This document shows positions 19,164 to 57,166 of a stretch of DNA of 57,270 nt, piece after piece. Source of the DNA: Macrostomum lignano (taxonomy: Eukaryota); assembly GCA_002269645.1 (NCBI GenBank), contig NIVC01003108.1, positions 61,685 to 118,954 of the forward strand. The letters are read 5' to 3'. The notes under the pieces were generated by a model. The model was not told where the DNA came from. It ran no database searches and saw only the letters and a list, made by a program, of their open reading frames with translations. Made by a program: the position numbers and the translations under genes. The stretch's first letter is position 1. Each line of letters begins with the position of its first letter.

Positions 19164-19461
19164 ACGGACGCGAGCAGATTGGACTGACCATTAAATTGCT
19201 ATAATCGGTAATGTTTGCATACGCTCGTAACAATACTGCTTATTGAGTTTTTATCAATGCGCGTCAGCTGATCAGGCTAAAATTATACGCGGCCAATAGC
19301 TATATTAGCTAGCTCGTATATTGTTTATGGCTTCTACAAATATAATTAATTATTGATGATTATTGTGCTCCAAATATCACGGGAACTCCGACACAGCCTT
19401 AAAAGCTTCCAATTTTCCCTACTGTGTATCTTGTGTGACTCGTCTGTTACGGTAAATAAGA

Positions 19462-25800: not shown

Positions 25801-28800
25801 ACTGTCAGTAATGCAATAGAAAATTGATAACTGACCAGAACATTCCCATAGCCAAACCTGATAGCTGGAGTTGTCACAGGCCAGCCCGGCGGCGATGGGC
25901 TCGCCGTAGCAGACCTGGCCACGCCGGCGCGCCTTGGAAATGGCCTCGCCGGCCTCGGCGCTCATCACGTGCACCACATAGAGCGGGCAGTTGGCCTCGT
26001 CAGCTATGGCCAGCGCGCGCGTAGTGGCCTCGATCTCCATGGCCTCCGGGCGGGAGTAAGAGTGACCCTCTGGCCCGCGGATTCCGTCAGCGACCAGCTG
26101 TTCGGCTTTGCGCTCGATAATCTGGTTGGGGGAGGGTGGGAGCGGATTAGCGAGGAGCGGGATGACAGTATTGGAAATCGATACAGGCTTTACTGTCAAG
26201 ATGAACTGCGCTACTGGGGGAGATGACTAAGAGACTGGTTTATTTTGAGACAGGGAGAGACGGAGATGAAGACGGAGAGAGGGGGATAAAGGCAGAGAGA
26301 GGGAGATGGAGACGGAGACAGGGAGATGGAGACGGAGACAGGGAGATGGAGACGGAGACAGGGAGATGGAGACGGAGACAGGGAGATGGAGACGGAGACA
26401 GGGAGATGGAGACGGAGAGAGGGAGACGGAGACAGGGAGATGGAGACGGAGACAGGGAGGCAGAGACAGAGAGAGGGAGATAGAGACGGAGAGGTAGATA
26501 GAGACGGAGACAGGGAGATGGAGACGGAGACAGGGAGGCAGAGACAGAGGGAGGGAGATAGAGACGGAGAGGTAGATAGAGACGGAGACAGGGAGATGGA
26601 GACGGAGACAGGGAGGCAGAGACAGAGAGAGGGAGATAGAGACGGAGAGGTAGATAGAGACGGAGACAGGGAGATGGAGACGGAGACAGGGAGGCAGAGA
26701 CAGAGAGAGGGAGATAGAGACGGAGAGGTAGATAGAGACGGAGACAGGGAGATGGAGACGGAGACAGGGAGGCAGAGACAGAGAGAGGGAGATAGAGACG
26801 GAGAGGTAGATAGAGACGGAGACAGGGAGATGGAGACGGAGAGAGGGAGATAAAGGCAGAGACAGAGAGAGGGAGATAGAGACGGAGAGGTAGATAGAGA
26901 CGGAGACAGGGAGATGGAGACGGAGACAGGGAGATGGAGACGGAGACAGGGAGATAGAGACGGAGACAGGGAGGCAGAGACAGAGAGAGGGAGATAGAGA
27001 CGGAGAGGTAGATAGAGACGGGGACAGGGAGATAGAGACGGAGACAGGGAGATGGAGACGGAGACAGGGAGGCAGAGACGGAGACAGGGAGATGGAGACG
27101 GAGAAACGGAAAGGTAGATACTCGTAGAGACGGAGAGGATAGGGAAGAGAAGGAGATAAGATGGAGATACAGATGGGAGAGAGGAGACAGGCAGGTGCAA
27201 AAGCCGCTTACCTTGCCATTCTCAGCGTGCACCTGAGCCACAGCGCCCAGCTTCCGGCAAGCCTGGAACACATTGAGCATCTCGTCATCCTCCAGCAGGA
27301 AGACATTCCTGTAGGCCATGAAGCACTTGAACGAGTTGATGCCTTTCTCCTTCACCAGGGTGGCCATCTCGTTGGCGGTCTTGTCGCCCCACTGTGGCAC
27401 GATCACGTGCAGGCCGTAGTCGCAGCAGACTTTCTCGTCCGCCCAGGCCCGGTACTTGTTGTACCAGTCCATCAGAGAGTCGCCGCGCGGGCAGGCCACG
27501 AAGTCGATGATCATTGTGGTACCGCCGGCCAGGGCAGCCCGAGTGCCAGTGTAGAAATCGTCCGCCGAATGCGTGCCCATGAAGGGCATCTGCATGTGCG
27601 TGTGCGGGTCGATGCCGCCTGGGGGGGGGGACAGGGATGATGGCAAGGAGTTCGAATTTTTATTGAATTTTGAGAACCATGCTATTGTGTATACTGGGGT
27701 CACGCAAGGTCAACTTCAATATGCTTCATAAAGATACTGTATATAGGGGTCACCTGAAGACAACTACAATAAGCCAGATACTGAATAGTAAGGTCATGTC
27801 AGGTCAATCAAACTATGCTAGAGACTGTATAGAGAGGTCACGCCAGGTCAACCACACAGTCCCGGAAGCTATTAACCGGGTTCAAGCCAGGTCAACCACA
27901 CAGTCCCGGAAGCTATTAACCGGGTTCACGCCAGGTCAACCACAACAGTCCGGAAGCTATTAACCGGGTCACGCCAGGTCAACCACAACAGTCTCAGAAG
28001 CTATTAACCGGGGTCACGCCAGCTCAACCACAACAGTCCGGAAGCTAGCTCGTATTAACCGGGGTCACGCCAGCTCAACCACAACAGTCCGGAAGCTATT
28101 AACCGGGTCACGCCAGCTCAACCACAACAGTCCGGAAGCCATTAACCGGGTTCAAGCCAGGTCAACCACAACAGTCTCAGAAGCTATTAACCGGGTTCAA
28201 GCCAGGTCAACCACAACAGTCTCAGAAGCTATTAACCGGGGTCACGCCAGCTCAACCACAACAGTCCGGAAGCTATTAACCGGGGTCACGCCAGCTCAAC
28301 CACAACAGTCCGGAAGCTATTAACCGGGGTCACGCCAGCTCAACCACAACAGTCCGGAAGCTATTAACCGGGGTCACGCCAGGTCAACCACAACAGTCCG
28401 GAAGCTATTAACCGGGGTCACGCCAGGTCAACCACAACAGTCCGGAAGCTATTAACCCTCAAACGGAAATTTGGGGTCCAATGGACCCCACGATAACTTT
28501 TCCCATGTGTTTTCAATGGAGGTTTTTCTATTATCGTGGCCTAACCGTTTGAGGGTTAACCGGGGTCACGCCAGCTCAACCACAACAGTCCGGAAGCTAT
28601 TAACCGGGGTCACTCCATGTCAACCACAACAGTCTCAGAAGCTATTAACCGGGGTCACTCCATGTCAACCACAACAGTCTCAGAAGCTATTAACCGGGTT
28701 CAAGCCAGGTCAACGACAACAGTCTCAGAAGCTATTAACCGGGTTCAAGCCAGGTCAACCACAACAGTCTCAAAAGCTATTAACCGGGTTCAAGCCAGGT

Positions 28801-29040: not shown

Positions 29041-32000
29041 TTTTGTCCGCTTTATTTGTAGCTTTGGGTATCACAGATCGATAAATAGAGATGTCAAAAT
29101 CCGGACTCGGACTGAAATGCGAAATTGATTTTTTAATGTTTAGATGAAGGTACGCTCGCAGTTATAGACCTGGCTGAAACCATACATGCGCAACACCCGG
29201 CGAGGGGCCCAGCCAAGGTAAGTCGCAGAAATTCCCCATCAAAAATAGACTAAAAACTAACTAGATGACGAGGCATTTAGCCTTATAAATACAGTCTTCG
29301 TTACTCCTGCCGGTTACTAAAAAATTAAATTGTTAAGGTTTGTTTCATATGTTGCATTTTTCGTTAAGAAGTAGGTCGCACGGCTGTTGTAAATCAGGAC
29401 GGTTGCGCATGTATGCTGAAATTATCGAATAAAAGACGTGACAGATAGACATTGGTATCGACATACAGACAGACACTAAGACAAACAGACAGAGGATAGG
29501 ACAGACCAACAAGTGCTGCTTGCTGCCAGCGCAGTGTAGAGTAAACTGATTGAAATCAGCAACAGTCTCGCAGGCACAAATAATGCCAGAAATGCAATTG
29601 CAAAGGCCCTGCACACTGCAAGCACGTAATCAAGATCTAAGACTGCACAATATAAGTATAAACAGACCCTGCAAACAGGCTCCAGGCCTCAAGACCTGTA
29701 GGCCTGCTTCATGTCACAGTTCTGTGATTCTGTTGCATAGCAAGTTCTTATCTTTTGTCTTAGGTTTACCACCATAAATACAAGCACTTTTAATACTGGC
29801 ATGATTGCTTGTAAAAAATCTTATAACACAATGTGTACATTTGCCAAATTTTTTTAAAATTAAGCTTTTAAAAATTTGTAATTCTTTGGTGGTCATGCAT
29901 ATCTTTTTTGATGAAAAATTTGAATTAGAAGTAGGTCAAATATTTGAGAATTGATGTTTCTTAATGCTTTCAATGGGCATTCTATTTGAATTTTGTATAC
30001 ATTTGTGTTGTGTTTGTTTAGTTCAATAATTTAAGTCTCTCCTTGGCCAATGCACAATATAGAATGTACATTATCAATAAAAGTTAAGGGGTTTTATGAA
30101 CCTTTGACTAGGCTGGCAATTTGTAGTGTTGATTGAGTTTTATTATTAATAGGTCAGATAGACACTATAGAAAAGAGGGAAGTTATAAAGCTAGCCTAAA
30201 ATGCAATATGCAAATGAAACAAGCATTTTCAACCTTTTAAATTGCTTTGATCTTGTTTGTATTATTTTATAATATAGAGAAAGCAGATGTGACATAGAGA
30301 TGTCACAAGTACATTTGCATATGTGTTTATAGGGAATTTTATATAGTTACTAACAAAACATAATTTTAGGCTATCAGAAGACTGCAAAGATCATTTTGCA
30401 TTAGAGTTAGATGCTTATCTAATATGATTAGGCATAGGGGCCTATTTATCCTTGCATTCTTACAAACTTTAAAAAACTTACTACTTAGCAATGTCTTATT
30501 TTTCTGCATGAAGTAATTTTGGCATCAAATTTTAAACAAACAAACTAAAAAAGTTTGTAAAAATATAGTTCATACATTGTCTTCTTAATGTTGGAAAGTC
30601 TTAAATTTTGCATATTGAACTTTAAAGACTTGAATGGCTTAATGATCCTTTAATATACTCATTTTCTAAGTTTGTTAAAAAAACTCCGTGTCAAAATAAT
30701 AAAAAAACAGAAACTAGGACATTGTCAAAAACTCTAATATTGTTAGTTGCTTCCTATAGACTTTTTGTAGCTTAAATAGTCCTTCTAGAAGCTAATGACT
30801 CTAAAACATTTTTGCCATTGATTAAAAATTTAACTTGGTATGCTTTCTTTTAAATTTGAGCAACTTAACTATAGCATAGTTTTGTGCTTCATTGTGAAAT
30901 TACAATTGATTTGAGTCACATAAGAAATAAATGTCAATCAAATGATTAAAAAAGCAAGGTTAAGAAAATATATAAAATTTAAATGTTGCTCATTTCTTTT
31001 TTATTTTTAGTTCATAATTGTAGTCTAATCATTAAATTAGATTTCATATAGTTCTTTGACTGTTAATTTTTATTAAGTATCAACAAATAATTACTAGATA
31101 TTTTGTTATTGTTTGCATGGTGTAGTCCTACACTACACTACATATTAAAATTAAAAAAGACTATTCTTGATGGACAGTTAGCAATCCATCTATGTATTAT
31201 CTATCGAAATTATCTAGCTTATCTAGATTTTAGTATCTAATATTAGTATAATTACAAAACAACGATTTTATACATTCTCTGCTCTAGATTTTAGTCATGG
31301 TGGTTAGAAGTCAAAATTTAGATTTGCAATTGTTTACTTAGTAACCCATATCATTTATAAAGTTGCTCTTTGTATACGCTTCGTGTCGCGCAACGCACGA
31401 TAATATTTTGTTTTGAGTGAGTATTAACGACGTCTGTGAATACAAATTTGCAAAAAAATATGTTGGCAATCATTTTTTATAAACGGCGGTAATAATCTCT
31501 AAATTTTAAAAATCAGGACGAATTTTTGCGTTTAAAAATGTGTGCGTAAATAATAAGTTCATCAAAACAAAACTATATTCTTTTCGACTGTCAAGCTTGC
31601 TTTTCTTTATCAGTTGATTTTTGAAAATATAGATAATCTATAAAACATTTGTATACAGGATGATAAATTCAATTACTGATAAAGCAAAGTGACGAACACG
31701 GACGTCTTACCATGTTGATTATTGCTTAAATCATATTTGAGTATATTAATTATTGAGGACGGAATTTATGCACCTTCCCAAGCTCTTTCTAATGTACTTT
31801 ACTGCCTACTGCCAGTGGTAATGTCATTTTCTTCTTCCTCGATTTTGTTCCCCATTACCATTATTAATTCCTTCCTTTGTTCAGGCGCCAATCTAGTTGG
31901 CGCCAGATGATATGGGAGAATCACATGACTGACAGATTTTGCTCGTCTGTAGGGTCAAACCATGCTTATAATACGAGATAGGGGCGCATCGCTGCGAGAT

Positions 32001-41522: not shown

Positions 41523-41890
41523 TAGATGCAGGGGGCTGTGTGCACCCTGGCGCACTTTAAGCGACATTGTCACACAACCGGCGTGAGGCATTGCTGCCCA
41601 TTCCGCCGACTCCCCTGAGCAGGCACACAAGCGCGGATACCTACGCAGTCATACGCACAGGCACTCACTCACACAGGAGTGTACAGCGGCCCTGACTTTA
41701 TTATCGTTAGGCATGTACACTTCATTGTGCCTTAGAGGTTGGCCCTCAAGGCCGGTTAATTGCACGTGCAGAGCCAAGCCGAGATTCCAATTTAGCCCCA
41801 AATGAATGTGACTGCACTTGGAATCGAGACTGGGCCGCTGGCACATCAGAGCGCCGCGGTCGTCCCCTGCTTACGAGCTTACGAGTGTCC
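41523..41890 (-). mobile_element. tRNA-derived SINE copy (same family as 44631-44925)
   Basis: Reverse complement matches 44631-44925 in both the head (TGTGCCAGCGGCCCAG.CTCGAT.CC) and the tail (GGCTGTGTGCACCCTGGCGCACTT...CCCATTCCGCCGACTCC.CTGAGCAGGCACACAA). Confidence 0.75.
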
Positions 41891-42815
41891 TGCAGTAGTA
41901 ACGGAGACAACCTTCATTTTTGGTTCGACCCGAGCGTCTTTGACCTCTGAGCTACTTTATTTGATTTCGCTGGCCAGCAACACGAAAGTATAAATCGGTT
42001 GCTTGGGTGAGAAATTAGTTTAAAAAATAGCAAAAAAATTGTGTATTTTTGAGGGCTAGACATGCTAAATTTGGTGTCAGGGGCGGGCTGGGGGTTAGGG
42101 ATGATCGCAATGTAGGTAGCGACCTACTCAAACTGACAAGGAAGGATACAACATCATAAGTTTGAACAGCTAAATGTAGGCATTTCGGTTGTTGGTTCGT
42201 CGCAAAGGGACATTTGGCACCGCCGGAAACATTTTTTAATGTATTCATTCATTGTTAACTTCCGGTTAGCAACCAGCCCTCACAATGCTTCCAATTCCCC
42301 CGACGAGTCGGTCCGGAAAATGCTCATGGTTTGGACGAGTATCAAGGCAAATCTGAAAGTAGCTTTATGTCGGACCTGGACGGAAATTGACTGAACTGAT
42401 TTATTTAGTTTAACTGAGTGGACAGTAGTTGTCATGAAAGGGCATTCAGGACAGAATTTCCACTGCCTCCGTAATCCCATTAACTTTATCTGTATTGTTC
42501 CTAATAACTTGGTTGAACAGTTTGAAAATCTTCCAAACATACATCTACCAATGAATCAATTTAAGGACAAAATGTTCCCAGTTGTTTTACTAGATTCCTA
42601 TTCCTAGCTCGAGCCTAACTACAAATTCAAGTACCAGTGCAAGATGAAATGTACCCAGAATGTACGCAAATGTACGAATGTACCGAAGCCCACCACGGAA
42701 TGATTGCTTGAATTTACCACTCCTCTCTCTGCGTCTGATTATTTTGAAGACAGAGCAGCTATCCAGTGAAATTGTACGATTGAAGGCAGCTGAGGAAAAA
42801 ACTCCTTTTGCATCA

Positions 42816-42829
42816 GTTGTCATGGCAAC
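42816..42829. promoter_or_regulatory. RFX X-box-like palindrome GTTGTCATGGCAAC
   Basis: One mismatch from the palindrome GTTGCCATGGCAAC; ~1.4 kb upstream of the receptor 2 ATG. Confidence 0.3.
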
Positions 42830-43477
42830 GAGAGGGTCATAGTTGCTGGTACAACGGAAAAGTTCTTCTTTGTCGTGTTCAGAAACTCATACATGTTGTT
42901 CAAGAGCAAATACAAAATTTGAGTCTTTCGACAAACGTAGCCGAAGAGATCAGGTGAGAATGCATAGGTAGGGACACACTTTAATGTTAAAAAAGTTACA
43001 ATTCATTTTTCTATAGAGCTGTATCAGACTTGTTAAAGCCTCGCTGTTTGCCATCGTCCTTGAGAAACGGAGGCTGTAGAGAACTAGGCAAATACCGCTT
43101 GTAACAGACAGTCTCACTGACATTGTCAGTAAATAAATGGGAAATAAATACGATTGAAGCCCTGTCGAAGCCCTTCGTCAGCATTTCGACAAATATCGGA
43201 GCGCTCCATCAATCGATAGGCCTAAAGTTGAGATCTACGCGGCTCATGGACCTTCGGCTTCCAGGCAAATAATAATCTTTTTATCTCCCATATCCTAAGT
43301 CTAAGTCTAAGAGAGTGCTTGAAAATGTGGCTAATCTTGATCTCAAGACAATCTTGATGTCTGGAACACTATCCGCCAAGCAAAATTTGTACTTGCACAG
43401 TGTAGATATATGCCAAGAGCAACTGTGGTTGTTGATTGCATTAAAACTCTCCTCTGACGGCAACGGCATCTCCGGCG

Positions 43478-43855
43478 GCAGCCTCAGATCGTTTGGCAGC
43501 GGCGGCGCGTTGCCTGACCGCCTGAGGGTGGCGTTGTTCCAGGCGGTGATCGAGACCGTCCTGTTGTACAACGCCGAGACCAATGCGGCACTCTATCACC
43601 GCACCGACCTGTTCCGTCCCAGCGAACTGTTGCGCCATCAGCGACTCCAGCTGGCAGGCCATCATCCGAGCCGAGTCGTACTACCCACAGCCGGTGCAGG
43701 AGGTGCTGTTGCTGACGCTGCAGACACCCTACTATCGACGGGGACAGGTGCACACTCGGCGCTTTGTTGACTGCCTGCTGTCTGATGCCGGCGCCCCGGA
43801 CACTGCCGGCGGTGCGGCCTACGTTCACGCCCAGGCCCTGAAACGCGACCTGTGA
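43478..43855 (+). mobile_element. 5'-truncated non-LTR retrotransposon (RTE-like) 3' fragment
   Basis: RLRVALFQAVIETVLLYNAET and LQLAGH.IRAE resemble the post-RT C-terminus of RTE-type LINEs; frameshifted. Confidence 0.65.
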
Positions 43856-44225
43856 CATTGTCCCACACTTTACTGGCTGACAATGTATTTTGTTATTATA
43901 GTTGTTGTTGTTGAGAGCATTGTAAAAGGGATTCAGGTTTATCTCGCTAGTGACCTCGCAAATAAAGGTCTGACAGACAATTTGTGTTGATTCCAGTCTC
44001 TTTTTGGCCTTGTTTCTCAAGTAGCATCCGTACTTTAACGGCTATAGTCACATTGTTTGAAGAAGGCAAGCAGGAGTGACAGCAAAGAGAGACCCAATGA
44101 GATCCCTTCAGACAGTGTGAGTGGGCCGCATCCTTGAAGCAGATAGTTATTCACGAAATAGTTTCTCCAACACCTTGGCTGCCAGCCAGAACTGAACAGA
44201 ATATAGCGGACTGTGACTCACTAGC

Positions 44226-45898
44226 ATGCTGTGGGCTGCACTATCAAGCTTCATCGCTCTCTTGCTCTGCCGTGCCGCAGCGGCAGCGGCTGCCTCGGCT
44301 TCTCCAGATGAGGCCTTGGAATTGGCGCTGAAACTGAAATCCGCCTACAACAAGGACGCCAGGCCGCCACCTGACAACGGTTCGGCAAACTTGGTGACCG
44401 TCTTTTTCAACCTGAATAATTTGGTTCGAGTGGTGAGCCTCCAATTTTAATGTGTTTGTGAGCCAATATCATTGCTCTGAGCATGTGGTCGAGCTTGGAT
44501 CTTTCCAACCCGCAGGACTCGGCAGCGCAGGAGATCATGCTGCAGGTCTGGTTCAGCCTGGTGAGACTTCTTGTTATTCGATGCGCAGCAATCTCGTAAT
44601 AAAGTCGAAAAATGTCTTATTAAGATTTGGGGGCCGTAGCCTAGTGGGTCTAGCGCGGTGCTCTTATGTGCCAGCGGCCCAGGCTCGATCCCTGTGCGTA
44701 TGAATGCGAACGTATCCGCGCGCTTGTGTGCCAAGGATCACTGTAGTGTACAGGACGAAAAATTCAAAGATTGCGTAATTTTAGGGGGTGCTACAGTGGT
44801 CCTTGTTGTGTGCCTGCTCAGAGGAGTCGGCGGAATGGGCAGTAATGCCTCTCGCCGGTTGTGCGACAATGTTCACCTGAAGTGCGCCAGGGTGCACACA
44901 GCCCCGAGTCCCTGCCTCTAACTAAAAAACTAAACTTATAAATATTTCATCTACGTCGGATGATACGCGACCATTTCATAGGTTAAGTGTATTAGAGCTC
45001 ACAGCAGTAAAATTTACCAACACACAAATATCTCAAGCAACTAGCATTTTTAAAGAAACAACGAGGCTTTGGATGGACGCCTATCTGCAACTGTCAAGTA
45101 TTTACGCTTTTTTCCTTCCCAGTTTTCCACAATATCCGAATCTGCATGATAAGAGTTAAAAAGTAACAAATACAAGAGTTGAGACTCTCATAGATAGCAA
45201 CAACCTTCTAACTACGAGACGATACTTGGGTAAGTGCATTAGCGCTTCCAGCGTATGTAAAAACTATCGATTTTTTCGAATAAATATCTCATGAAAGACA
45301 ATTCAATGGGTTTGCATGGCATCACGGAAGCTTGTTTACGTACTCGTACGTGCCAACACTATTCCCTGCAGTACTGGTTTGACAGCCGCTTGGTCTGGAA
45401 AGGAAAATTCAACTCCAGCTTTGACAACGTGAGCTCCATTTTCGTGCCAGCCGACCTGCTCTGGCAACCCGACGTGGCCTTTTATGACCTGTAAGTTCGT
45501 CCGTACGAACGATTGATGGCACTGATAAATGTAGAGAAGTCACTTGTAGATCACAGACACTATAGTACCTGGATAGGCCACTCAGTACATTTGAGTATAA
45601 ACTTTGAGTTGAGTATGAGATAATTAGAAGCACTTAAATGTAGTTTAGGTCAAGACTCACCCCTAGCCCCTCTCAATCTTCCGACCGCGTCTTTACACGC
45701 TTATTTACGTTTTCATTTTTTTGTCATTTTACGATATCTTTTATTTTCTATGCTTCCTAAATATAAGATATATAATATATAGTATAATTGATTACACCTG
45801 CCACAATAGGCAGATGTGCAACTGACTGCTCAGCTATTTTCAGTCATTGCTATCTGAAGGCGCGTACGGCTATTCAGTCCAAGGAAATGGGAGGGTCG

Positions 45899-45963
<65 letters not shown>

Positions 45964-48521
45964 TAATCAGAAAGGACTTTCTTAAGCTCATTAGCATCGT
46001 AATGAACAATGCATTCTAGTCTGGACCTGCGTCGAACATCCAGCGAAAAGATCGTGTTGGTTGTCAAAAGCGACGGCCTGGTGCAGTACACATCGGAGCT
46101 GCTCACCCATTCCAAGTGCGAAATGAATATGGCTGAGTTTCCTTACGACACGCAGAGCTGTCACCAGCGGGTGTCCTCGGTGGTGCACACGAACGAGACA
46201 ATCGCGTTGCGCATTAGGGAATCGAAACCCGGGGACTCGCTGACGGACTTTCTGGTCAAAAATATCGACTTCTGCATTGTGAACGTCAGTACTGTTAAGT
46301 CCATTGACGTGATCTACGATTTTGTGGAGCTCCGTGTTGATATCAAGGTTCGGACCCAGTTAGAGGTTACATTGGCCCATGAATGCTTGTTTGATGCGGT
46401 CCGTTGGTGATAGATGTCTTTAATGGTGGATGTCTTTGTGATGGATGTCTTTGTGATGGATGTCTCTGTGATGGATGTCTTTGTGATGGATGTCTCTGTG
46501 ATGGATGTCCTTGTGATGGATGTCTTTGATGCATGGATGTCTTTGTGATGGATGTCTTTGATGCATGGATGCCTTTGTGATGGATGTCTTTGTGATGGAT
46601 GTCTTTGTGATGGATGTCTTTGTGATGGATGTCTCTGTGATGGATGTCTTTGTGATGGATGTCTTTGATGCATGGATGCCTTTGTGATGGATGTCTTTGA
46701 TGCATGGATGCCTTTGTGATGGATTTCTTTGATGCATGGATGCCTTTGTGATGGATGTCTTTGTGATGGATGTCTCTGTGATGGATGTCTTTGTGATGGA
46801 TGTCTTTGATGCATGGATGCCTTTGTGATGGATGTCTTTGATGCATGGATGCCTTTGTGATGGATGTCTCTGTGATGGATGTCCTTGTGATGGATGTCTT
46901 TGATGCATGGATGCCTTTGTGATGGATGTCTTTGATGCATGGATGTCTTTGTGATGGATGTCTCTGTGATGGATGTCTCTGTGATGGATGTCTTTGTGAT
47001 GGATGTCTTTGATGCATGGATGCCTTTGTGATGGATGTCTTTGATGCATGGATGTCTTTGTGATGGATGTCTCTGTGATGGATGTCTTTGTGATGGATTT
47101 CTTTGATGCATAACAAGAGGCTGATGGAGTGATCATGCATGCAGATATTTAGATAGCATAGCACTGTACTAGAGCATCTGTGGGCTAGCGAAAAGATGTC
47201 ACATAATGTAGGACTTACTGAGAATTCCAGAATTTTCCATATCTAGCTCAAGGTTCAAATTTTAATGAGAATAATTTTGCATTCATTCTTAACTCCCGAA
47301 AATTATTGACAGCGGAAAACTACGTTTTACATGATGAACCTAATTCTGCCCAGCTTCCTACTGCTCGCCATCTCAACTCTGGCCTTCTGTCTCCCACCGG
47401 AATGTGGAGAGAGATTGTCCCTGAGCATCACCATCGTGCTGTCCATGTGCGTGTTTCTGCAGCTGACTGGAAACTTCACGCCAACACAGGGAGACTCGGT
47501 GCCTCTTCTAAGTGAGTTCTTCGTTTTGCCGCAGTAGAAATGTGTCAAGTGTCATGGGGCTCATGGAGGGCTCATAGGGCAGTTGCTAAGATTTCAAAGG
47601 CTCATAGGGAACTGCAGGAATTCTTGGGCTCATGGAGAATCGATGAAATGCCACGGTTCATGGGGGGAATTGCTGAAATTCTGTGGCTCATGTGTTCAGA
47701 TGCTTTGAGCCAAAGCCCATAGGGGATCTGATCTTTTAGGCTAGATATTCAGGGCGGATGCTTTTTTGGTTCAAACATCATTTTCCTTAAAAGATTGACA
47801 ATAGTGACTGTACAAGGTTAAAAGCCACACGTAGTTTATTCAAAAAAAGATTCTTTCCTTTGTTGCCTCCCCAACGGGGGGGGCAGACGAAATTGCTAGT
47901 TGCAGTCTAAATCTTCTTAAAGAACAGCAGCAGAAAGTGTGTTGCTATTAGAAGAAATTGCTTGCAACATTGCAGCCTGGTACTTCAGCCTCGCGGTGCT
48001 TCTGACCATGGCTAACCTGGTTGCCAATGCCTTCGTTCTGAGCTGCCACTTTGAGCAGTTTTCTGAGAACGCTCGAGTCCCCGGCCGTCTCACTCGGCTG
48101 CTGTTTCTCAATAGGCTCTTCTGCGGCCATCCGTCTCGTACAGAATCTCCGTCGGCACGAAATTCCAATGTGGTGATCGAGCCAACTGCTGCTGAAGTGC
48201 GTGACCAACAATCATTCACTGTGGATTGTTGATTAGCTTTTGCACAGGTGCATGCATTCACATATTTCATTCCAACTCTAGAACACGTACTCCGACGGAA
48301 CGGAACTTCGCGTCATCTCCCAACGAAGGTTAGGAAAAGCCGAATCTGAAACAACGATGCAACACCCAAGTTTCAAAAGTGACTGGAGCGCCGTTGTGAC
48401 CGCCGCTGACCGCTGCTTTTTTGCCTTCTTTTTCTCGTTGACAATGTCGCTAGCGCTGGCGATTGCGATTCTGGATGCCATGAACTCCAAGACCAGCTGC
48501 ATCGTGGGCAAGAATAATTAA
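44226..48521 (+). CDS. Divergent nicotinic-type Cys-loop receptor subunit 2; exons 44226-44432, 44516-44560, 45372-45490, 46020-46347, 47313-47511, 47976-48196, 48282-48521; 452 aa
   Basis: Same exon sizes (45/119/328/199) as subunit 1; CEMNMAEFPYDTQSC, LPPECGERLSLSITIVLS, DWSAVVTAADRCFF. Confidence 0.92.
44631..44925 (+). mobile_element. tRNA-derived SINE copy in receptor 2 intron 2
   Basis: A-box TAGCCTAGTGG, B-box-like GGCTCGATCCC, body shared with 41523-41890, A-rich end. Confidence 0.75.
45900..45960 (+). repeat. (CA)n microsatellite
   Basis: Direct observation. Confidence 0.99.
46425..47110 (+). repeat. 15-bp based minisatellite (TGTGATGGATGTCTT, with TGATGCATGGATG variants) in receptor 2 intron 4
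   Basis: Tandem units. Confidence 0.95.
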
Positions 48522-49328: not shown

Positions 49329-50228
49329 ATGTCATACCAGACTCCCCAAGACTTCATCGTTGCCATTCTGTACTTTGTATCCTTCACTGCCGCTGCGACC
49401 TCGCCTGACGAAGCTCTGTCATTGGCACTGGGCTTGAAGACCAGCTACAACAAGGACGCGCGTCCTCCGCCCGATGCTGGCTCAGCGAATCGAATCGGCG
49501 TTTTCTTTAACCTGAACAACCTCGCCAGGGTGGTCAGATTGATCGCTTTTAATCGTCCTTCATCGGAATAATTGGTTATAGTTACCTGTAGTTACAGCCA
49601 AAAATCAAGGCACACCCCATGGGGTACATCAGCCCCGATTTACTCATTGGCAAGCATGCATATAGCACACTCTGCGCGTTGGATGCTGTCCCTTATGGTC
49701 GTGAATCGCACGACAGGCTCCTGCAGGCCAATTTTTCTGTACGGACCGCAAATAATTAAGCCGCTGTCTGTAAGACACAACAAAATTGTATCCAAGACCA
49801 TTGATGACCGATTTCACTGCCCACAGAACTCAGCGACAGGGGAGATGACTCTGCAAGTCTGGTTTAATTTGGTATGACTAATTTGCAATGAATAAGTTTC
49901 TGTTAAACTTTCCCACCCCGAGGTTGCAGCAGATGTACACATAAAGTGGCCAAGGTAAACTCAACAATTCTGGGTAATTAGAGAAAATTTGAATAAAATG
50001 CTCCTCTAGTTTGGCGTTCCGTCGGACCTCCAGCGACAAAATTGTTCTAGTTGTCGAAAACAACGGCTGGGTGTCGCACACTGCGGAGTTTCTGACCCAG
50101 TCCAAGTGCGCAATGAATATGGCCAGGTTTCCCTACGACACGCAGAGCTGTCGCCAGCTCGTGTCCTCAGTGGTGCACACGAGTGACACCGCTAAGCTGT
50201 TCATTCGTCCAACAAAATCAGCGGACTC
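49329..50228 (+). pseudogene. Cys-loop receptor subunit 3, disrupted: exons 49329-49532, 49827-49871, exon 3 absent, exon 4 from 50010 truncated at 50228 by the Polinton
   Basis: YNKDARPPPD, TLQVWFNL, CAMNMARFPYDTQSC; homology to the paralog stops at GCG GAC TC. Confidence 0.88.
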
Positions 50229-50238
50229 AGTAGTATAT

Positions 50239-50477
50239 ACGATACAAAATAGCCAGCAAACCGTTCTCACCATTGCAAACAATTTAACCCTTTATCAGTG
50301 TGAAATGACTTGTTTTCCCTTCATTTTCGCTCGTCTTCACTTCGCTCAACTCGCTTCGCTCATCCTCGCTTCATTTCGGTCAAACAAGTCATTTCACACT
50401 TACAACGATTAATTCTCTTTGAATGGTGAGAACACGCTCTCGTCGAACGCTTTGGTTTGCTGGCTATTTTGTATCGT
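50239..50477. other. Nested fold-back at the element terminus
   Basis: Perfect inverted arms 50239-50262/50454-50477 (24 bp), 50263-50274/50422-50433 (12 bp) and 50297-50315/50382-50400 (19 bp). Confidence 0.93.
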
Positions 50478-50610
50478 CAACGCTTCCAACTCTCCCCAAT
50501 ACACACAAACTCTCTATAACCCGTCGCACGCGCCGCAGGCGCGAAGGGTCTGGAAGTTTTGGTAGAGAAAGAATAGAAGCTATTTATAGTCAGCTCACCC
50601 ACCCACTCAA

Positions 50611-50675
50611 CATTCCATTTAGACCAGATTTTTCGTTTTGGTTTTCGTTTTCAAAAATCTGGTCTAAATGGAATG
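50611..50675. other. 23-bp perfect inverted repeat with 19-nt loop
   Basis: CATTCCATTTAGACCAGATTTTT / AAAAATCTGGTCTAAATGGAATG. Confidence 0.95.
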
Positions 50676-50714
50676 CAGACAATCTTTTTTCTGTTACTAA
50701 AAATAGAACAAAAA

Positions 50715-51113
50715 ATGACACACGTTACTAATATGCAAAATCTGAATGAATTGCAGGTAGGAGATCCAGTTGAATACCGAGGTGAGGGTCTTTTTGATGT
50801 GGTTGGAACAGCAGCAAATTTTGTTAAAGACAATATGGGTCTTTTAGGGCAAGCAGGCTCCGCAGCAGGTTCTATAACAAATGCTGTAAAAGGAGGAATT
50901 GAAGCAGCTAGAGCAGCAGAAGAACTAAAGAAATTGAGAGAATTTAACGACACCCTCTCACAAATAAATGCAATAAAAGATTTAAAGCTGGCACAAGCCG
51001 CACAACCAACAGAAACCCCTACGAAAAGCACTCCAATAAGTAATAAAGATATTCAGGATTTTAATAAAATGCTAACCACCATTAAAGGCGGAAAAGGATT
51101 AAAAAAATTTTAA
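50715..51113 (+). CDS. Polinton small ORF with Gly/Ala-rich amphipathic segment (putative virion core or membrane-active protein)
   Basis: AAAAATG start context; RGEGLFDVVGTAANFVKDNMGLLGQAGSAAGSITNAVKGG; function inferred only. Confidence 0.65.
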   Translation: MTHVTNMQNLNELQVGDPVEYRGEGLFDVVGTAANFVKDNMGLLGQAGSAAGSITNAVKGGIEAARAAEELKKLREFNDTLSQINAIKDLKLAQAAQPTETPTKSTPISNKDIQDFNKMLTTIKGGKGLKKF

Positions 51114-51123
51114 CAATATAAAA

Positions 51124-52098
51124 ATGGACACGGATAATGAACGGCTACATTTTATAGGAGAAATTGTAGATACTTTAAATCTAGATGATAATAAACATAG
51201 CCACACAATGTTAAAAAGATTGGATCGTTTAGGTAAAAAACTTGACTACGACATCGATACATTTAAACTTGCTGCAAAATATGCACAAGAAGGAAGGCCA
51301 ATATCCTTTAAGAATCGTGGTAGAAATTATAGGCTGACAGAGTCCGATGTAAAATTTTTATTGGAGACTCACACTAAAAAGGACGGTGGTTTACTACCTA
51401 TTTTACCAATTCTTTTAGGCCTCGGAGCAGCCGGAGCAGCCGGTTTAGCAGGCAAAAGAATTCATGATAACCGAAAACAGTTAGCAGAATTAAAGGCAAA
51501 ACAGGGAGGCATATTACCACTTGCAACTTTGTTACCAATAATTTTTGCAGGAATAGGAGCAGCTGGAGGAGTTGCTGGTGGAGCAGCTGGAATTGCAAAA
51601 GCAGTAAATGACAAAAAAGCTGCGGATGAAAAAGCTAAAAGAGAGGCCGAATTTCAAAGACAGCAAATAACGCAGGATGCTCAATTCAAACAGAAACTTA
51701 TTGACACCATTAATAGTAGTTCAGCAACAGCAGAGCAAAAAAGAAATGCAGAAGCTAGGTTAGCAGCCGGAAAAGGTTTACTGTTAAATGGCAGCGGCTT
51801 GGTACTAAAAGGAACAACCCAAGGAAGTGGAGTTGTAGCAGATAAACTACAGGAATTTGGTCAAACTTTAGAAAAAACGGGTGAGAAAGCTAAAGGGTTT
51901 TTTGATAATATTGGAGCTAATTTTAGGCCGGCAGTTCAGAAGATTTTTACTAAGTTAGGAAAAGATTTTAACATAATTGAAAAACACGACGGAAGCGGAT
52001 TATATCTCGAAATGAGACCAAAAGCAGGTTCAGGAATTTTCTTAAATTCAAACGTTATGGGCAATGGACTACTGTTACCAAAAGCAGATCTCGAATAG
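51124..52098 (+). CDS. Adenovirus pX/mu-like core protein precursor, 324 aa
   Basis: Two GG-[LI]LP hydrophobic blocks (DGGLLPILPILLGLGAAG; QGGILPLATLLPIIFAGIGAAGGVAGGAAGIAKAV) resembling the adenoviral pX C-terminus GGILPLLIPLIAAAIGA. Confidence 0.65.
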   Translation: MDTDNERLHFIGEIVDTLNLDDNKHSHTMLKRLDRLGKKLDYDIDTFKLAAKYAQEGRPISFKNRGRNYRLTESDVKFLLETHTKKDGGLLPILPILLGLGAAGAAGLAGKRIHDNRKQLAELKAKQGGILPLATLLPIIFAGIGAAGGVAGGAAGIAKAVNDKKAADEKAKREAEFQRQQITQDAQFKQKLIDTINSSSATAEQKRNAEARLAAGKGLLLNGSGLVLKGTTQGSGVVADKLQEFGQTLEKTGEKAKGFFDNIGANFRPAVQKIFTKLGKDFNIIEKHDGSGLYLEMRPKAGSGIFLNSNVMGNGLLLPKADLE

Positions 52099-52182: not shown

Positions 52183-55100
52183 ATGGAACAAAGATTGACC
52201 CCAGATCAGATTCGACAACTTCTTGCAAATGAGCGCCAACAGTTCAATCTATTACAAAGACAGATTGAACAAATTGAACGGCGCCAAAGACAGCAACTTC
52301 GGCGAAGAGCAAGAGAAAGACAGAGAGAAAGGCAGAGAGAAAGAGAAATACAAGAACAACAAATAAACGAATTAGCAAATAGTATAAGGGCAGAAGAAGC
52401 TTTTAAGCGTTTAGTAGAAAAGGTTGAATATGAAAAAAGAATAGCAGAATTAGAAAAAAACCAAAAGAAACAAACACGTCGGAAAACTAAGAATAAATCG
52501 GATGAAAAACCATTAGAAGAGTTTATTAGGGTTTATCGATTTGAACCAATGCAGAAGGTGCTAGATTTTATTGAAACCCAACTTTCAAACGGATATAGTG
52601 TTGAAATTACTAATGCTAGTGTACAATATTTTTATAACGATAGCGGCGATGATCGCGAAGAGATTAATCAATACTTAGCAACATTTTATAATATAAAACA
52701 GTTTCAAGCTTGGATTAAGCATTTGGTAGAAAACTATAACATGAATTTAAGTATGTTTTCTGGAAGACTTAAAATGACACCAAATGAAATTACAATTAAA
52801 CACGAAAGGTCAAAGCAGGGTATGGGAACAAATGTCATGTGTGAAATTGCAGAGTATAAAGATGAGTACTGTTACATACCTAGTGATGGAAATTGTTTCT
52901 ATAAGTGCGTTAAATTTATATATGGTGATAAAGCCCCACGCAAAGACGAATATGGTGCTTGGTTGTACGACTCAAGAACCCAAAGAGGTTTAATGACAAA
53001 TTCAAGAATTGGAAGATTCAATGAATATTTTAATCTTAATATAGGGCTGTACAACACCAAAAATCGCGGCATTGAACCAAAGTCTCAAAGAGGGATTCAC
53101 CACGATTGGTTATTAATAAATTATTTCCACACACCCGATTACCACATTGGGCATTATTGTCTTATATCAAATAAACAACGAGGAATCGCCCTCGAACGGA
53201 TAAAAGACAATTATAAAGTAGTGTTTAAAAACCCAACACCCGAAAATGTTAAGGAGTTAAAAATATTCAACACACCCACAAATCCCAATAAATCAAATGT
53301 ATATATATTTGATTTTGAAACATATTTAAATTATAATCAACAAGCATGCCCGTATGCGGTTGGTCTTTTAAATTATAATGACTTTTCTAATAATTGTAAC
53401 GAAACCCCAGAGGAAATAAAGAAACTAACTAAGATCTTGATATCAGATCGCGGTTGTGATTTTCAAACAGACGGAGCTAAACCGACTGCGTTAGAAAAAT
53501 GTTTAAATACCTTGGTACAGTTAGGTCAAAAAAGATTGTTTTGATCGCACACAACTCATCCCGCTTTGATTCATACATACCACTATTTTGTAATATAAAA
53601 CCAATTAAAATTCTCAAAACCCCAAGAGGAATATTATCAATCACTTTTGTAAACGATTACGCGTCAAAAGAGGTTAGTGCGTTTATAAATAAAGATAAGA
53701 AGAAGAATCACAAGGATTCGAAACAAACCATTACGATGCTTTGTTCATATCAACACGCTTCAATGAGTTTAAAAAAGTTTTGCTCATCAATGACAATTAG
53801 AGAGGATTTGCGAAAAACCTCAATGGTTCATGACATTACCGAGCACGATTATCTAGAACGCATAGACGAATGGTATGAATATTTACAATTTGATCTTATT
53901 TCTTTATGTGCCTGTATTCATAAATATAACGAAATAGCATATGAAATTGGAGGAATGACAATGTTTGATACCTTACGTGTTCAAGTTTAACATTAAAATG
54001 TTGGTTTAAAGATTTTGTTAGAGTTGAAGACAAAATGAAACAATATCTAAAGACAGAAGAAAAAACTAATTACATTAAAAAAGTTGAAGAAATAATATCT
54101 CCGTTGAAAATAGAAGATTATTTTGACTTAAGCAATCTTGAAAAAGCGAAATACCAAACACTATTAAGAAAAGAATTTTCAGTTCACTCTCATACCAATC
54201 CTTATATAAGAAGGTTTATGCGGGACGCAGTCAAAGGAGGTAGAGTATTTGCACTAATAAATAAATACGAAAGTGATTGTTTTCAAACAATAGTAGACGT
54301 TGTAAAAGACCATTTAAAAACACCAACAAGCGACCCATGCGAGGTTATATCATCTTATCTCAAAAGCGATATGGAAGAAAAAAAGAAAAGCAATTAAACT
54401 AAAAATCAATATCAATTGGGTACCGTATCAGATTGTTTAATGAATTTTGATGGGGTCTCATTGTACCCATCCGCCATGTCTGATAAGGATAGCGAATATC
54501 CAAGAGCAGAAACAGCCAGGGTGTTTGATATAAGCGAGGAAAAAGATTTCTTATCACAATTTAATTCACAAACCTTTCGACCAAAAACAGCGGTTTTAAA
54601 GATTATGTATGAGAATCCTAACACCGTTTTTCTTCAACATCTCCCATCGAAAGATAAAGAGAAATTTTATAATCCGGAAACAAAAGCAAACGAAACAAAA
54701 ACATTAAATAGGTTTAAAACGGAAAGGTAATTGACACCTTATGTTCCGTAGATATACAAGAAATTGTAAGAATGGGTGGAAAAATATTAAAGATATATAG
54801 TGGAATTGTATATGAAAAAAATTACGATTTCTCTCCGTTTCAGAATTATATTACAAGCCTTTTTGAAAGGAGAAAAGTATTTAAAAAAGAAAATAACGAG
54901 GCAGGTTCTGAATTGGTAAAAACACTATTAAATTCATTATATGGCAAAACAGTTCAAAGAGACATTACTTTCACAACACATCTCTGGAATTTGCAAACAT
55001 TAAAAACAGAATACTATGACACAATCAAATCATATGAGAAAATATGTGACGATTTATATTATGTTGAAAAAAATAAAGACACGCAAGAATATGTAGATGA

Positions 55101-55779
55101 GGAAGAGGATTGTCCTATAACAAGCCTTTGTCCAGCACAATTAGGAATATTTATCTTAGCTCATTCAAGAAGGATCATGAATAATTTTATCACCTCTATA
55201 GACGGCTCAAAGACTCCAGAAATTTATTACGGCGATACAGATTCGTTATATATACATAAAAAATTGGGACACATTAAATAAAAACGGGCATGTTGGAAAT
55301 AATTTAAGTCAAGGAAAAAATGATTATGGAGAGGGTGGAATTATATTCGGTTATTTTATCGCTCCTAAAATTAAATATTGTCTTTTATTGAAAGACGATT
55401 TTATTATGGAAGAGAAAAAAACATTTAAAGGATGTGCAAATGATAAGATTAATTTTGCATCGTTTAAAACGTTATATGATGGGCAGTCAATAAAAGTAAA
55501 TAATAATGCCCCATGGAAACGATCGTTTGAAGGAGGCATAATAATCCCCAAAGTGGATCAACAATATCAAAAACATATACCTCTACGATAAACACATTTA
55601 AAAGAGAAAAACCGGATAAAAACGGAGTTATGAAACCATTCTTTAAAAACTATTTTGATGACAAACCACAACACGAAAATTCAATTGCATATTATAACAG
55701 TTTACTATTTGATGTTGATTATAATTGTTTTGAGTTTGATATTGATGAATTAGCACTTGAAAAAAACCAAAGCATGTAA
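52183..55779 (+). CDS. polB: Protein-primed family B DNA polymerase with N-terminal extension and OTU-like protease; split by ~6 single-base frameshifts
   Basis: ExoI YIFDFETY, ExoII IAHNSSRFDSY, ExoIII YLQFD, AVKGGRV, motif A FDGVSLYPSAM, motif B KTLLNSLYGKTVQ, motif C YYGDTDSLYI, FIAPKIKY. Confidence 0.95.
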
Positions 55780-56094
55780 TTGTTTGACCATATCATTAAC
55801 TTCAATTTCATATATTATTGAAGGCCAATTGTCCTCGCAGTCGGCAGGGTAACTTAAACATTCCTTTATTTTTTTCCTAAGTTTTTTTATTCGTCTAACC
55901 AATCTATCTATTTCAATTTCAATTACTGTTTCAGCATAATCAATTGCTTTTTGTATAAAACGCTTTCTTTTATCCAAGTCGTATCGGATAGGAAACATAT
56001 CGTCCCCATAATCACTATAAAACATAGTATTTATTTTTTTATTAATATAATTAAGTTCACGCTCTTTAGTGATAAGGATAATTTGTATCTCCAT
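55750..56094 (-). CDS. Polinton hypothetical protein (likely start at 56094)
   Basis: ORF with TATAAGAAAATG start context; overlaps the polB end convergently. Confidence 0.55.
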   Translation of the reverse strand: MEIQIILITKERELNYINKKINTMFYSDYGDDMFPIRYDLDKRKRFIQKAIDYAETVIEIEIDRLVRRIKKLRKKIKECLSYPADCEDNWPSIIYEIEVNDMVKQLHALVFFKC

Positions 56095-56183
56095 TTTCTT
56101 ATAAAAAAATTTAGTCATCTTCGTCAGTCTCCCAAACGGAAGCTAATTTTACAGTCCTGTCACTCTTTTTATTTTTGTTTGTT

Positions 56184-56441
56184 TTATTTTAAATTGCAAC
56201 CCACCCTCGTGCTGTATTTTATAATGAACGCTTTAGGTTTATTAATAACTAAAACTGGAAAATTTTTAACATCATTCCCACTTAGACATAGAACTGTATG
56301 TGAATCCAATTGTAAAAATATCGATTGAAGTCCAATAAATTTAACCTGTCTCAAACATATAATATTATATTCTTTATTCTCCAACATATTGGGGGTGACA
56401 TAATTAATCACATTAGAATCGGTTTTCAACCAACTTTCCAT
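56184..56441 (-). CDS. Polinton hypothetical protein (likely start at 56441)
   Basis: ORF with TTAAAAATG start context. Confidence 0.45.
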   Translation of the reverse strand: MESWLKTDSNVINYVTPNMLENKEYNIICLRQVKFIGLQSIFLQLDSHTVLCLSGNDVKNFPVLVINKPKAFIIKYSTRVGCNLK

Positions 56442-56466
56442 TTTTAATCTAAAAAAATAACAAAAA

Positions 56467-56928
56467 ATGAAAGACATTTACGAATGTAAAAAATGTAACG
56501 TGACTATGCATAGAGCTCAAACAGCAAGCGGAGATATATATCATATGTGCTATTCATGTTCTAAAATATATCAATTTGAAAAAACAAAAAAGATTGAAAA
56601 TTCATATTACTATTTTAAAAACACAATATTAAGAAATCTTACAAGAGACATTTCTCATCCAATTTTAATTCCCGGAAATAATGTTTATTTATATAACAAC
56701 TTTTTCAATTTAAATAAAGGAAAGGGATTAAGTTCGAAAGACTCCGAAAGGATTTTAATTTTAGTTGGATATTATTTTAATTTTCTTATTCGAGAGAATA
56801 CAAAGTTTATAAGGATAGGTAACATACCTAACGAAATGTTACTGAAAAGTCATTGGAATTTTTATGTATTGATAAAAAATTTAAACCTAGAATTACAAGA
56901 GAATTACCACTTTGGGAAGAATATATAA
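56467..56928 (+). CDS. Polinton hypothetical protein with N-terminal CxxC..CxxC zinc-ribbon-like motif
   Basis: YECKKC...CYSCSK; AAAAAATG start. Confidence 0.6.
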   Translation: MKDIYECKKCNVTMHRAQTASGDIYHMCYSCSKIYQFEKTKKIENSYYYFKNTILRNLTRDISHPILIPGNNVYLYNNFFNLNKGKGLSSKDSERILILVGYYFNFLIRENTKFIRIGNIPNEMLLKSHWNFYVLIKNLNLELQENYHFGKNI

Positions 56929-56962
56929 CGTATGCGTTAGAAAAATTAAACAACTTGAAGTT

Positions 56963-57166
56963 CTACAGCAGCGCTACCTGATCGGGGGCTTTGTACCCCA
57001 TAGCCATAGTTTCTGGTTTGTATTCAATAGTTTCTATCGGCGGAGCTTTGGGTTTATCGAGTCTCAACTCTTTTAACTCCATATCGGTAAAAGTTTCAAC
57101 ATCTAAAATTCTATTTCGATCTTTTAAATATTTTTTCATATAATTCAACCGCCGTTGATAACTCAT
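56963..57166 (-). CDS. Polinton small hypothetical protein
   Basis: 67-aa ORF, charged and Pro-rich. Confidence 0.4.
   Translation of the reverse strand: MSYQRRLNYMKKYLKDRNRILDVETFTDMELKELRLDKPKAPPIETIEYKPETMAMGYKAPDQVALL

What the first reader, a model, noticed from the sequence alone, without database searches (positions are those of the whole stretch)
50229..50680. Left end of the element is a multi-stem fold-back, not a simple TIR
Seen: starting 10 nt from the terminus, three nested perfect inverted arms (24, 12 and 19 bp) fold 50239-50477 onto itself around a pyrimidine-rich loop with CTTCGCTC-like repeats. A 6-bp GC hairpin (50529-50543) and a separate 23-bp perfect hairpin (50611-50675) follow. 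Known: the Polinton model relies on end-to-end TIR pairing with protein priming, while self-folding ends are typical of parvovirus-type and poxvirus genomes. I am not aware of this much internal structure being described for Polinton ends. Inferred: a structured replication origin, packaging signal or integrase platform, possibly a distinct lineage.
Basis: partly seen in the sequence, partly recalled or inferred. Interest (0 to 1): 0.8.

Follow-up and report, generated by a model that had tools for sequence, protein, structure and literature searches.

The report
Self-folding end of flatworm Polinton
The end of a virus-like jumping element (a Polinton) in a flatworm genome can fold back on itself into long, perfect hairpins while its first ten bases stay free, which may be how it presents its start point for copying, but this rests on one copy and one end.

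Summary
All five arm pairs sit at the stated coordinates (24, 12, 19, 6 and 23 bp, perfect), and the fold z-score is -12.8 / -11.1. The longest arm in 300 shuffles was 12 bp and in the element body 10 bp. The end is a true Polinton terminus: a tandem host paralog shows a Cys-loop receptor exon cut exactly before AGTAGT at 50229. Downstream lie a pX-like ORF and a broken pPolB, 95% identical to a named Macrostomum lignano polymerase. The parvovirus/poxvirus analogy fails, because the terminal 10 nt stay unpaired and the (AGT)2 protein-priming motif is intact. My best reading (0.4) is an intrinsic TIR whose displaced single strand folds locally into a duplex next to a free 3' template, like Streptomyces telomeres. 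Rivals are nested palindromic elements without a clear target duplication (0.25), a duplex or RNA-level signal (0.2) and a neutral template-switch scar (0.15). The right TIR, sibling ends and Repbase could not be obtained, so conservation and covariation are untested. Palindromes are already reported in casposon TIRs and in virophage/PLV TIRs (2026 preprint). I found no such report for pPolB animal Polintons in the held library.

The parts
50005..50228 (+). Host exon of a nicotinic-receptor-like (Cys-loop) gene, interrupted by the insertion
   Evidence: PF02931 E 4.5e-10 for the ORF at 50011; ungapped alignment to the tandem paralog exon (about 46015-46238) ends at 50228
50223..50228 (+). Predicted 6-bp target-site duplication, left copy (GGACTC)
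   Evidence: Last bases shared with the paralog; right copy is outside the window, so inferred
50229..50238 (+). Element terminus: (AGT)2 end motif plus ATAT; 10-nt tail left unpaired by the fold-back
   Evidence: Sequence; pairing probability 0.04-0.19 on either strand; motif per Barreat 2021 passages
50239..50477 (.). Fold-back A: nested perfect arms of 24, 12 and 19 bp (55 bp, all Watson-Crick)
50275..50296 (.). Left side of the 22x21 interior loop (partner 50401-50421); degenerate symmetry, with TTAA at 50284-50287 and 50409-50412
50316..50381 (+). 66-nt apical loop, pyrimidine-rich on +, about 3 copies of a 14-15 nt unit containing TTCGCTC; no DNA fold on either strand
   Evidence: TRF period 14-15, 2.3-3.2 copies
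50434..50453 (-). 20-nt one-sided insert; small side hairpin with two G-T pairs on the minus strand only (not significant)
   Evidence: RNA z -1.3, DNA z +0.5
50529..50543 (+). 6-bp all-GC hairpin with a GCA triloop, apex of a weak degenerate hairpin 50482-50580
   Evidence: 0 of 500 shuffles for the apex; whole domain RNA z -2.1 with unselected bounds, -3.6 with bounds chosen after seeing the fold, body controls down to -2.7
50581..50589 (.). TATA-like box (TATTTATAG on +, TATAAATAG on -), about 30 nt upstream of hairpin B
   Evidence: Read from sequence; function inferred, not tested
50611..50675 (.). Hairpin B: perfect 23-bp arms, 19-nt T-rich loop with GTTTT repeats
   Evidence: Rfam only sub-threshold miRNA-shaped hits, none at gathering score
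50715..51113 (+). First ORF (132 aa from the likely start), no family found
   Evidence: Start context shared with the ORF at 56467 (D6, E 0.007); no Pfam, no homologue, Atlas hits below 0.8
51124..52098 (+). 324-aa ORF with a weak adenovirus pX-like segment (core-protein-like)
   Evidence: PF05829 E 4.9e-4, below cut-off; 12 homologues incl. one from Lottia gigantea
52183..55761 (+). Protein-primed DNA polymerase B, broken (five frame changes against the closest full-length relative; one in-frame stop)
   Evidence: PF03175 E 1.9e-12; 924 of 973 core residues identical to M. lignano BOX15_Mlig030240g1

Best explanation
The fold-backs are an intrinsic part of this Polinton family's end and act on single-stranded DNA. 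Shown: the end, the arms, the free 10-nt tail and the pPolB. From established knowledge of protein-primed replicons: pPolB copies from a terminal protein at (AGT)2 by jumping back and displaces one strand whole. Inferred: on that displaced strand each end folds on itself, so nt 11-34 pair with an internal inverted copy and rebuild a short duplex (a 'local panhandle') beside an unpaired 3' template carrying the end motif. The TP-pPolB complex (and possibly integrase or the packaging ATPase) could then load without the two ends of a 15-20 kb molecule meeting. The internal copy lacks the 10 terminal bases, so it cannot act as a second start or integration end. Intra-strand template switching or repair on the folded strand would keep the arms perfect while loops drift. 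Hairpin B is a second module of the same kind, or a promoter-proximal one.
For: The arm begins at nt 11, immediately after the end motif, and pairing jumps from at most 0.19 to at least 0.95 at that point. All 78 pairs of the four long arms are Watson-Crick with no G-T, which fits DNA better than an evolved RNA (inference). Arms are perfect while the interposed loop is about half diverged (55 of 55 versus 11 of 21; Fisher p 4e-7, partly circular because arms were defined as perfect runs). There is no non-trivial target duplication at the outer boundary of A or around B, whereas the same scan recovers TTAA around a host piggyBac-type MITE at 28456-28555. There is no other copy in the window. 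Two separate long hairpins lie in the 490-nt non-coding end and none with arm of 10 bp or more and loop up to 20 nt in the 6.5-kb body. Precedent for protein priming on a self-folded end: Streptomyces telomeres (PMC5449611 passages).
Against: One copy and one end only. The right TIR is outside the window. No sibling DNA was found in prokaryotic genome, phage or plasmid collections, and no eukaryotic DNA collection was open, so conservation and compensatory changes are untested. Adenoviruses and most Polintons are thought to manage with end-to-end pairing alone (own knowledge; model restated in the legend seen). In the Halocafeteria preprint, TIR palindromes go preferentially with non-pPolB replicases. 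Strand asymmetry, expected if only the 3'-end strand mattered, is weak. A TA-flanked MITE at 50245-50471 is formally possible from the sequence.
Confidence: 0.4

Rival explanations
1. A and B are small palindromic non-autonomous elements (MITE-like, or elements that leave no target duplication) that inserted into the AT-rich end of this copy or subfamily and have no role for the Polinton.
For: Size (239 and 65 nt) and the shape, long imperfect inverted arms round a short-repeat loop, are typical of MITEs (own knowledge). The host window is rich in repeats and holds a real TTAA MITE. TTAA flanks the inner hairpin on both sides and the left side continues CCCT. TA flanks 50245-50471. A likeness of the loop to palindromic Crypton-type repeats of marine invertebrates is recalled only. 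Kojima and Jurka 2011 confirm Cryptons lack TIRs and that animal Cryptons show no terminal repeats, but the text has 0 hits for 'palindrom'.
Against: The TTAA candidate has only 3 of 15 ungapped end matches against 12 of 15 for the host MITE, and it would leave the outer 24+12 bp arms unexplained. The TA candidate needs 4 further flanking pairs to be complementary by chance or target bias (about 1 in 256). Two independent insertions within 450 nt of the terminus and none in 6.5 kb of body are needed. No second copy in 57 kb.
Confidence: 0.25
2. The symmetry is intrinsic but read as duplex DNA or as RNA: dyad binding sites or cruciforms for integrase, packaging or transcription factors, or a structured non-coding RNA transcribed from the two-way TATA-like box (outward through the middle domain and A, or inward with B as a cap-proximal hairpin).
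For: TATA-like box at 50581-50589 lies about 30 nt before B and reads as TATAAATA on the minus strand. The minus strand folds better as RNA (A: -119.9 versus -89.6; middle: -45.3 versus -29.5 kcal/mol), with 5 and 8 G-U pairs in the minus-strand folds. CGCTC repeats are enriched (4 observed, 0 of 500 shuffles). A phi29 pRNA-like or adenovirus VA-like RNA is a recalled analogue.
Against: No G-U in 78 arm pairs. The RNA asymmetry is largely compositional (middle domain z -2.1 versus -1.8 with unselected bounds; body controls reach -2.7). No Rfam family at gathering score. No hairpins at gene ends, so no giant-virus-type hairpin rule. No expression data.
Confidence: 0.2
3. Neutral scar: strand-displacement replication switched template near the end and left inverted duplications that are tolerated and occasionally re-homogenised, with no function.
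For: Inverted duplications near ends of linear replicons are a plausible by-product; the Halocafeteria authors raise accidental annealing as an alternative for their palindromes. This copy is close to its named sibling (95% aa), so perfect arms need little post-insertion selection.
Against: A single recent switch gives one uniform palindrome, not perfect arms interleaved with a half-diverged loop and a 20-nt insert. The exact sparing of nt 1-10 and a second hairpin would be coincidence. The same points argue against a read or assembly fold-back artefact.
Confidence: 0.15

Closest known systems
Polinton/Maverick (adintovirus, Polintoviricetes) ends; Barreat and Katzourakis 2021, PMC8097293 (passages; 2 of 713 supplement rows)
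   Same: (AGT)2 end motif, predicted 6-bp TSD, non-coding end within the 46-1447 bp TIR range, pPolB, pX-like ORF
   Different: Internal fold-backs are not mentioned (0 hits for palindrom/hairpin in text and supplement). Whether they are nonetheless common in TIRs could not be checked.
Palindromes in TIRs of endogenous virophages and PLVs of Halocafeteria seosinensis, bioRxiv 10.64898/2026.07.28.741278 (passages and section 7)
   Same: Self-complementary sequence in TIRs next to the TSD in integrating relatives of Polintons; a replication role is proposed
   Different: There: 52-nt palindromes at the extremity (subtype 5), found with gap limit 10, mostly with non-pPolB replicases, hairpin priming proposed. 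Here: pPolB element, arms start at nt 11, loops of 66 and 19 nt, free end, so hairpin priming is not possible.
Streptomyces telomeres (Tap/Tpg end patching), PMC5449611 (passages)
   Same: Terminal-protein priming on a single-stranded end that folds through several palindromes; GNA triloops (one here, GCA at 50535-50537)
   Different: Seven tight palindromes in about 180 nt, including the first 13 nt, an internal origin and a dedicated primase. Here long arms, big loops and a pPolB. Analogy of function only; no homology tested.
Casposon TIRs, PMC4046053 (passages; one supplement passage)
   Same: Self-synthesizing pPolB transposons, some of whose TIRs contain internal palindromes
   Different: Prokaryotic, Cas1 integrase, median TIR 56 nt; no role shown in the passages read
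Parvovirus/AAV and poxvirus hairpin termini (recalled; search listings only)
   Same: Self-folding end; GCTC repeats occur in the loop (AAV Rep-site likeness recalled)
   Different: Their hairpin includes the very end and primes or seals it. Here the end is unpaired and no HUH Rep or resolvase was seen in the 7 kb available.

Membership tests
Polinton/Maverick | [quoted passage not shown] | tested here: met
   PF03175 E 1.9e-12; 118 homologues, best named ones from M. lignano and L. gigantea; broken in this copy
Polinton/Maverick | 5'-(AGT)2 or (AG)3 end motif at a true insertion boundary | tested here: met
   AGTAGT at 50229; paralog homology ends at 50228
Polinton/Maverick | Terminal inverted repeats at both ends and 6-bp TSD | not testable with these tools
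   Window ends 7 kb into the element; left TSD copy predicted only
Polinton/Maverick | Retroviral-type integrase, packaging ATPase, protease, capsid genes | tested here: inconclusive
   None among the 14 ORFs at or beyond the element's left end scanned; the rest of the element is outside the window. Only a weak pX-like hit supports a virion module.
Parvovirus/poxvirus-type hairpin-primed end | Terminal nucleotides fold back to give a paired 3' primer or closed loop | tested here: not met
   nt 1-10 pairing probability 0.04-0.19
piggyBac-type MITE (inner hairpin) | TTAA duplication with matching CCC...GGG terminal repeats | tested here: not met
   TTAA on both sides but 3 of 15 end matches; host control 12 of 15
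Tc1/mariner-type MITE (50245-50471) | TA duplication at the outer edge of the TIRs | tested here: inconclusive
   TA lies inside the arms, with 4 more complementary pairs outside it (by eye; this start lay just outside the range)
hAT/Mutator-type MITE | 8-10 bp target duplication | tested here: not met
   No flanking direct repeat above 4 bp among the candidates listed at the tested boundaries
Helitron 3' end (GC hairpin then CTRR) | CTRR followed by T, about 10 nt after the hairpin | tested here: not met
   CTGG at 50550-50553 is followed by A; rule recalled
Crypton-type non-autonomous palindromic repeat | Dispersed copies sharing ends with a tyrosine-recombinase element, no TSD | not testable with these tools
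   No eukaryotic DNA collection; resemblance recalled; neither shows nor excludes it
Known structured RNA (Rfam) | Match at gathering score | tested here: not met
   0 of 18 matches reach their gathering score

The most novel reading that the evidence does not exclude
A clade of pPolB-encoding animal Polintons (flatworm, perhaps also the related Lottia family) starts replication on self-folded single ends. Each displaced terminus rebuilds its own duplex origin beside a free (AGT)2 template, a convergence on the Streptomyces telomere design. This would replace the end-to-end 'racket' of the standard Polinton model and give a 250-nt testable origin.
Probability: 0.25. Interest if true: 0.75.

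Novelty: new variant of a known kind. Interest (0 to 1): 0.5.

Why it matters
How Polintons replicate has been modelled rather than shown, and their cis-acting ends are described by little more than length and a 6-bp motif in the papers read. A strongly structured end that spares exactly the priming motif points to a defined origin that can be tested with a short DNA fragment. It also prompts a cheap survey of TIR self-complementarity across Polintons, which the Halocafeteria preprint itself calls for. If the hairpins are only nested MITEs, the finding is ordinary.

Tried and rejected
Sibling or relative DNA: the pPolB alignment (15 of the 118 hits) against genome contigs matched 58 stretches, 0 confirmed. 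The 24-bp arm had 0 exact matches there. The end against plasmids and phages, and a pPolB relative against both, gave no match. The cluster look-up for sibling proteins could not be made, so copy number is unknown.

Published TIR sequences: Jeong's zip holds coordinates and protein tables (member list and part 1 of 266; 30 of 749 flatworm rows). Barreat's supplement rows seen give only end motifs. Starrett's supplement had 0 hits in 4.0 M characters. Zhang's Table S7 with the C. elegans TIR was not in the stored, cut file. Kapitonov and Jurka 2006 is not held, Repbase was unavailable, and bioRxiv supplements were closed. Any of these may show that such fold-backs are routine.

Rejected: hairpin-primed end; giant-virus hairpin rule; Helitron end; known RNA family; bacterial promoter/terminator reading (at chance level); assembly fold-back artefact (arms interleaved with diverged segments); enrichment of GNA mini-hairpins (2 per strand, uninformative); TTCG enrichment (59 of 500 shuffles); recurrence of the loop motif elsewhere in the window (only GA-repeat matches). 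The first ORF has no relatives. The tree is the quick one, on 160 columns, with 4 of 118 hits dropped for short overlap and no labelled Polinton reference groups, so it cannot place the family in a named group.

Full report
Observation. The sequence at 50229 begins AGTAGTATAT. As single-stranded DNA the region folds at -93.0 and -100.2 kcal/mol on the two strands, z -12.8 and -11.1, with 0 of 100 shuffles as good. The longest perfect arm averaged 8 bp in 300 shuffles (maximum 12) and never exceeded 10 bp in 27 windows of the element body. Of 252 windows across the whole 57 kb, only the three overlapping this end reached 17 or more. The feature is real.

Context. The window is eukaryotic and repeat-rich. 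Upstream lie tandem nicotinic-receptor-like genes (PF02931, PF02932). The exon ending at 50228 aligns without gaps to its paralog near 46015-46238, and the alignment stops at GGACTC, immediately before AGTAGT. This fixes the element's left end at 50229 independently of the motif and predicts a 6-bp duplication. Downstream, GC content falls to about 0.3. There is a 132-aa ORF of no known family, a 324-aa ORF with a weak pX-like segment, and a family B polymerase in pieces (PF03175). pX-like segments are typical of adintovirus accessory genes per Starrett 2021 (passages). The polymerase changes frame five times against the closest full-length relative and has one in-frame stop. It is 924 of 973 residues identical to a named Macrostomum lignano protein, and the next named relatives are Lottia gigantea polymerases (mostly 38-51% on the piece searched). 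A quick tree of 114 of 118 hits puts it with the M. lignano protein, inside a 38-row group that includes the Lottia rows. It is therefore a Polinton of a family with at least one close sibling, and nothing here marks it as a separate lineage. Integrase, capsid genes and the right TIR are beyond the window.

Anatomy of the end. The first 10 nt stay unpaired (probability 0.04-0.19) and pairing begins abruptly at nt 11 (0.95 or more) on both strands. Fold-back A has 55 perfect pairs in three arms, a 20-nt insert on the right side only, a 22x21 interior loop that is weakly self-similar (4.6% of shuffles), and a 66-nt loop with a 14-15 nt repeat unit that cannot fold as DNA. All 78 pairs of the four long arms are Watson-Crick. 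Between A and B, a GC hairpin with a GCA triloop is above chance (0 of 500 shuffles). It crowns a degenerate hairpin whose significance is doubtful (RNA z -2.1 unselected, -3.6 selected, controls to -2.7). A two-way TATA-like box lies about 30 nt before B. The first ORF probably starts at 50715, because its upstream context matches that of the ORF at 56467; the whole structured tract is then non-coding.

Is it nested mobile DNA? No part recurs in the window. Symmetric and asymmetric scans give no convincing target duplication round A or B. The asymmetric scan recovers a host TTAA MITE at 28456-28555 with 12 of 15 matching ends. A TA-flanked element at 50245-50471 is possible if four more flanking pairs are coincidence. 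Elements that leave no duplication cannot be excluded. A likeness to palindromic Crypton-type repeats is recalled only, and Kojima and Jurka 2011 (PMC3212892, passages) do not mention palindromes. Without the genome this rival keeps about 0.25.

How it most likely works. The (AGT)2 motif is linked to jumping-back protein priming (Barreat 2021, passage), and Polinton pPolBs carry a terminal-protein domain (Krupovic 2024, PMC11161782, passages). Strand displacement releases a full single strand, which in the standard model re-forms an origin by pairing its two TIRs (model as restated in the legend; the original paper is not held). If A lies in the TIR, each end can instead fold on itself: nt 11-34 become duplex and the 3' 10 nt stay free as template. 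The internal copy lacks the end motif and so cannot misfire. This is inference, but it explains where the arm starts, why the pairs are pure Watson-Crick, and why the hairpins cluster at the end. Streptomyces telomeres show that terminal-protein priming on a self-folded end exists (PMC5449611, passages). It is not hairpin priming, since the end is free. I put this at 0.4, a duplex or RNA-level signal at 0.2 and a neutral template-switch scar at 0.15.

What is in print. Ten full-text searches gave no description of internal fold-backs in TIRs of pPolB animal Polintons; I saw listings, of the top 40 or fewer where there were more hits. In-text searches gave 0 hits for palindrome or hairpin in Jeong 2023 (PMC10748475), Barreat 2021, Zhang 2024 (bioRxiv 10.1101/2024.01.15.575659), PMC5803895 and Pannagram (10.1101/2025.02.07.637071), and 0 for hairpin in Starrett 2021. 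Barth 2024 (PMC11296320) and PMC6431247 mention hairpins only for poxviruses or Helitrons. Against novelty: palindromes in TIRs are reported for endogenous virophages and one PLV subtype of Halocafeteria, mostly with non-pPolB replicases (10.64898/2026.07.28.741278, section 7), and for some casposons (PMC4046053). A palindromic repeat is also labelled in a figure legend of 10.64898/2026.10.13.758929. Subscription papers, Repbase and bioRxiv supplements were not seen, and no published Polinton TIR sequence could be inspected. The feature may therefore be common and merely unreported.

Verdict. This is a real, strongly non-random structure at a verified Polinton end, a new variant of a known kind. 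Its function is inferred from geometry alone and the decisive comparison with the right end and sibling copies was not possible. Interest 0.5.

Noticed in passing
window 44230-48520 and 49330-50228: Tandem nicotinic-acetylcholine-receptor-like paralogs; the second is cut in its ligand-binding exon by the Polinton, and the first has a 15-nt minisatellite (46407-47105) next to the same exon.
   Followed up: partly
window 28456-28555: 100-nt piggyBac-type MITE (TTAA duplication, 11-bp perfect ends starting CCCT) inserted in a 44-45 nt tandem array; used as positive control.
   Followed up: partly
window 41532-44905: About 3.4-kb segment with roughly 300-nt degenerate inverted ends (85-94% in blocks); part of one end (41683-41721) also matches 15541-15579 and 25702-25740. 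Probably an old DNA transposon or an inversion between repeat copies.
   Followed up: no
window about 6500-15600 and 15600-25800: Near-duplicate 8-10 kb block (GA-rich tract, GCG/CAG repeats, 438-aa ORF at 10032 and 17847, 40-, 39- and 31-nt minisatellites) with different array lengths.
   Followed up: no
window 50697-50726 and 56449-56478: Shared 30-nt A-rich start-codon context (83%) before two Polinton ORFs; other ORFs also start after A-runs (51124, 52183), suggesting a common promoter or translation signal.
   Followed up: partly
window 50715-52098: Both ORFs next to the end carry repeated GxG motifs that look like adenain-type cleavage sites (recalled pattern); three unnamed relatives of the 324-aa ORF carry PF08398 and one carries PF05829.
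   Followed up: no
window 29181-29415: 14-bp perfect inverted repeat 207 nt apart in host DNA, possibly another small MITE.
   Followed up: no
window 55750-57166: Four small ORFs after the polymerase (three on minus, one on plus) with no convincing Pfam match.
   Followed up: partly
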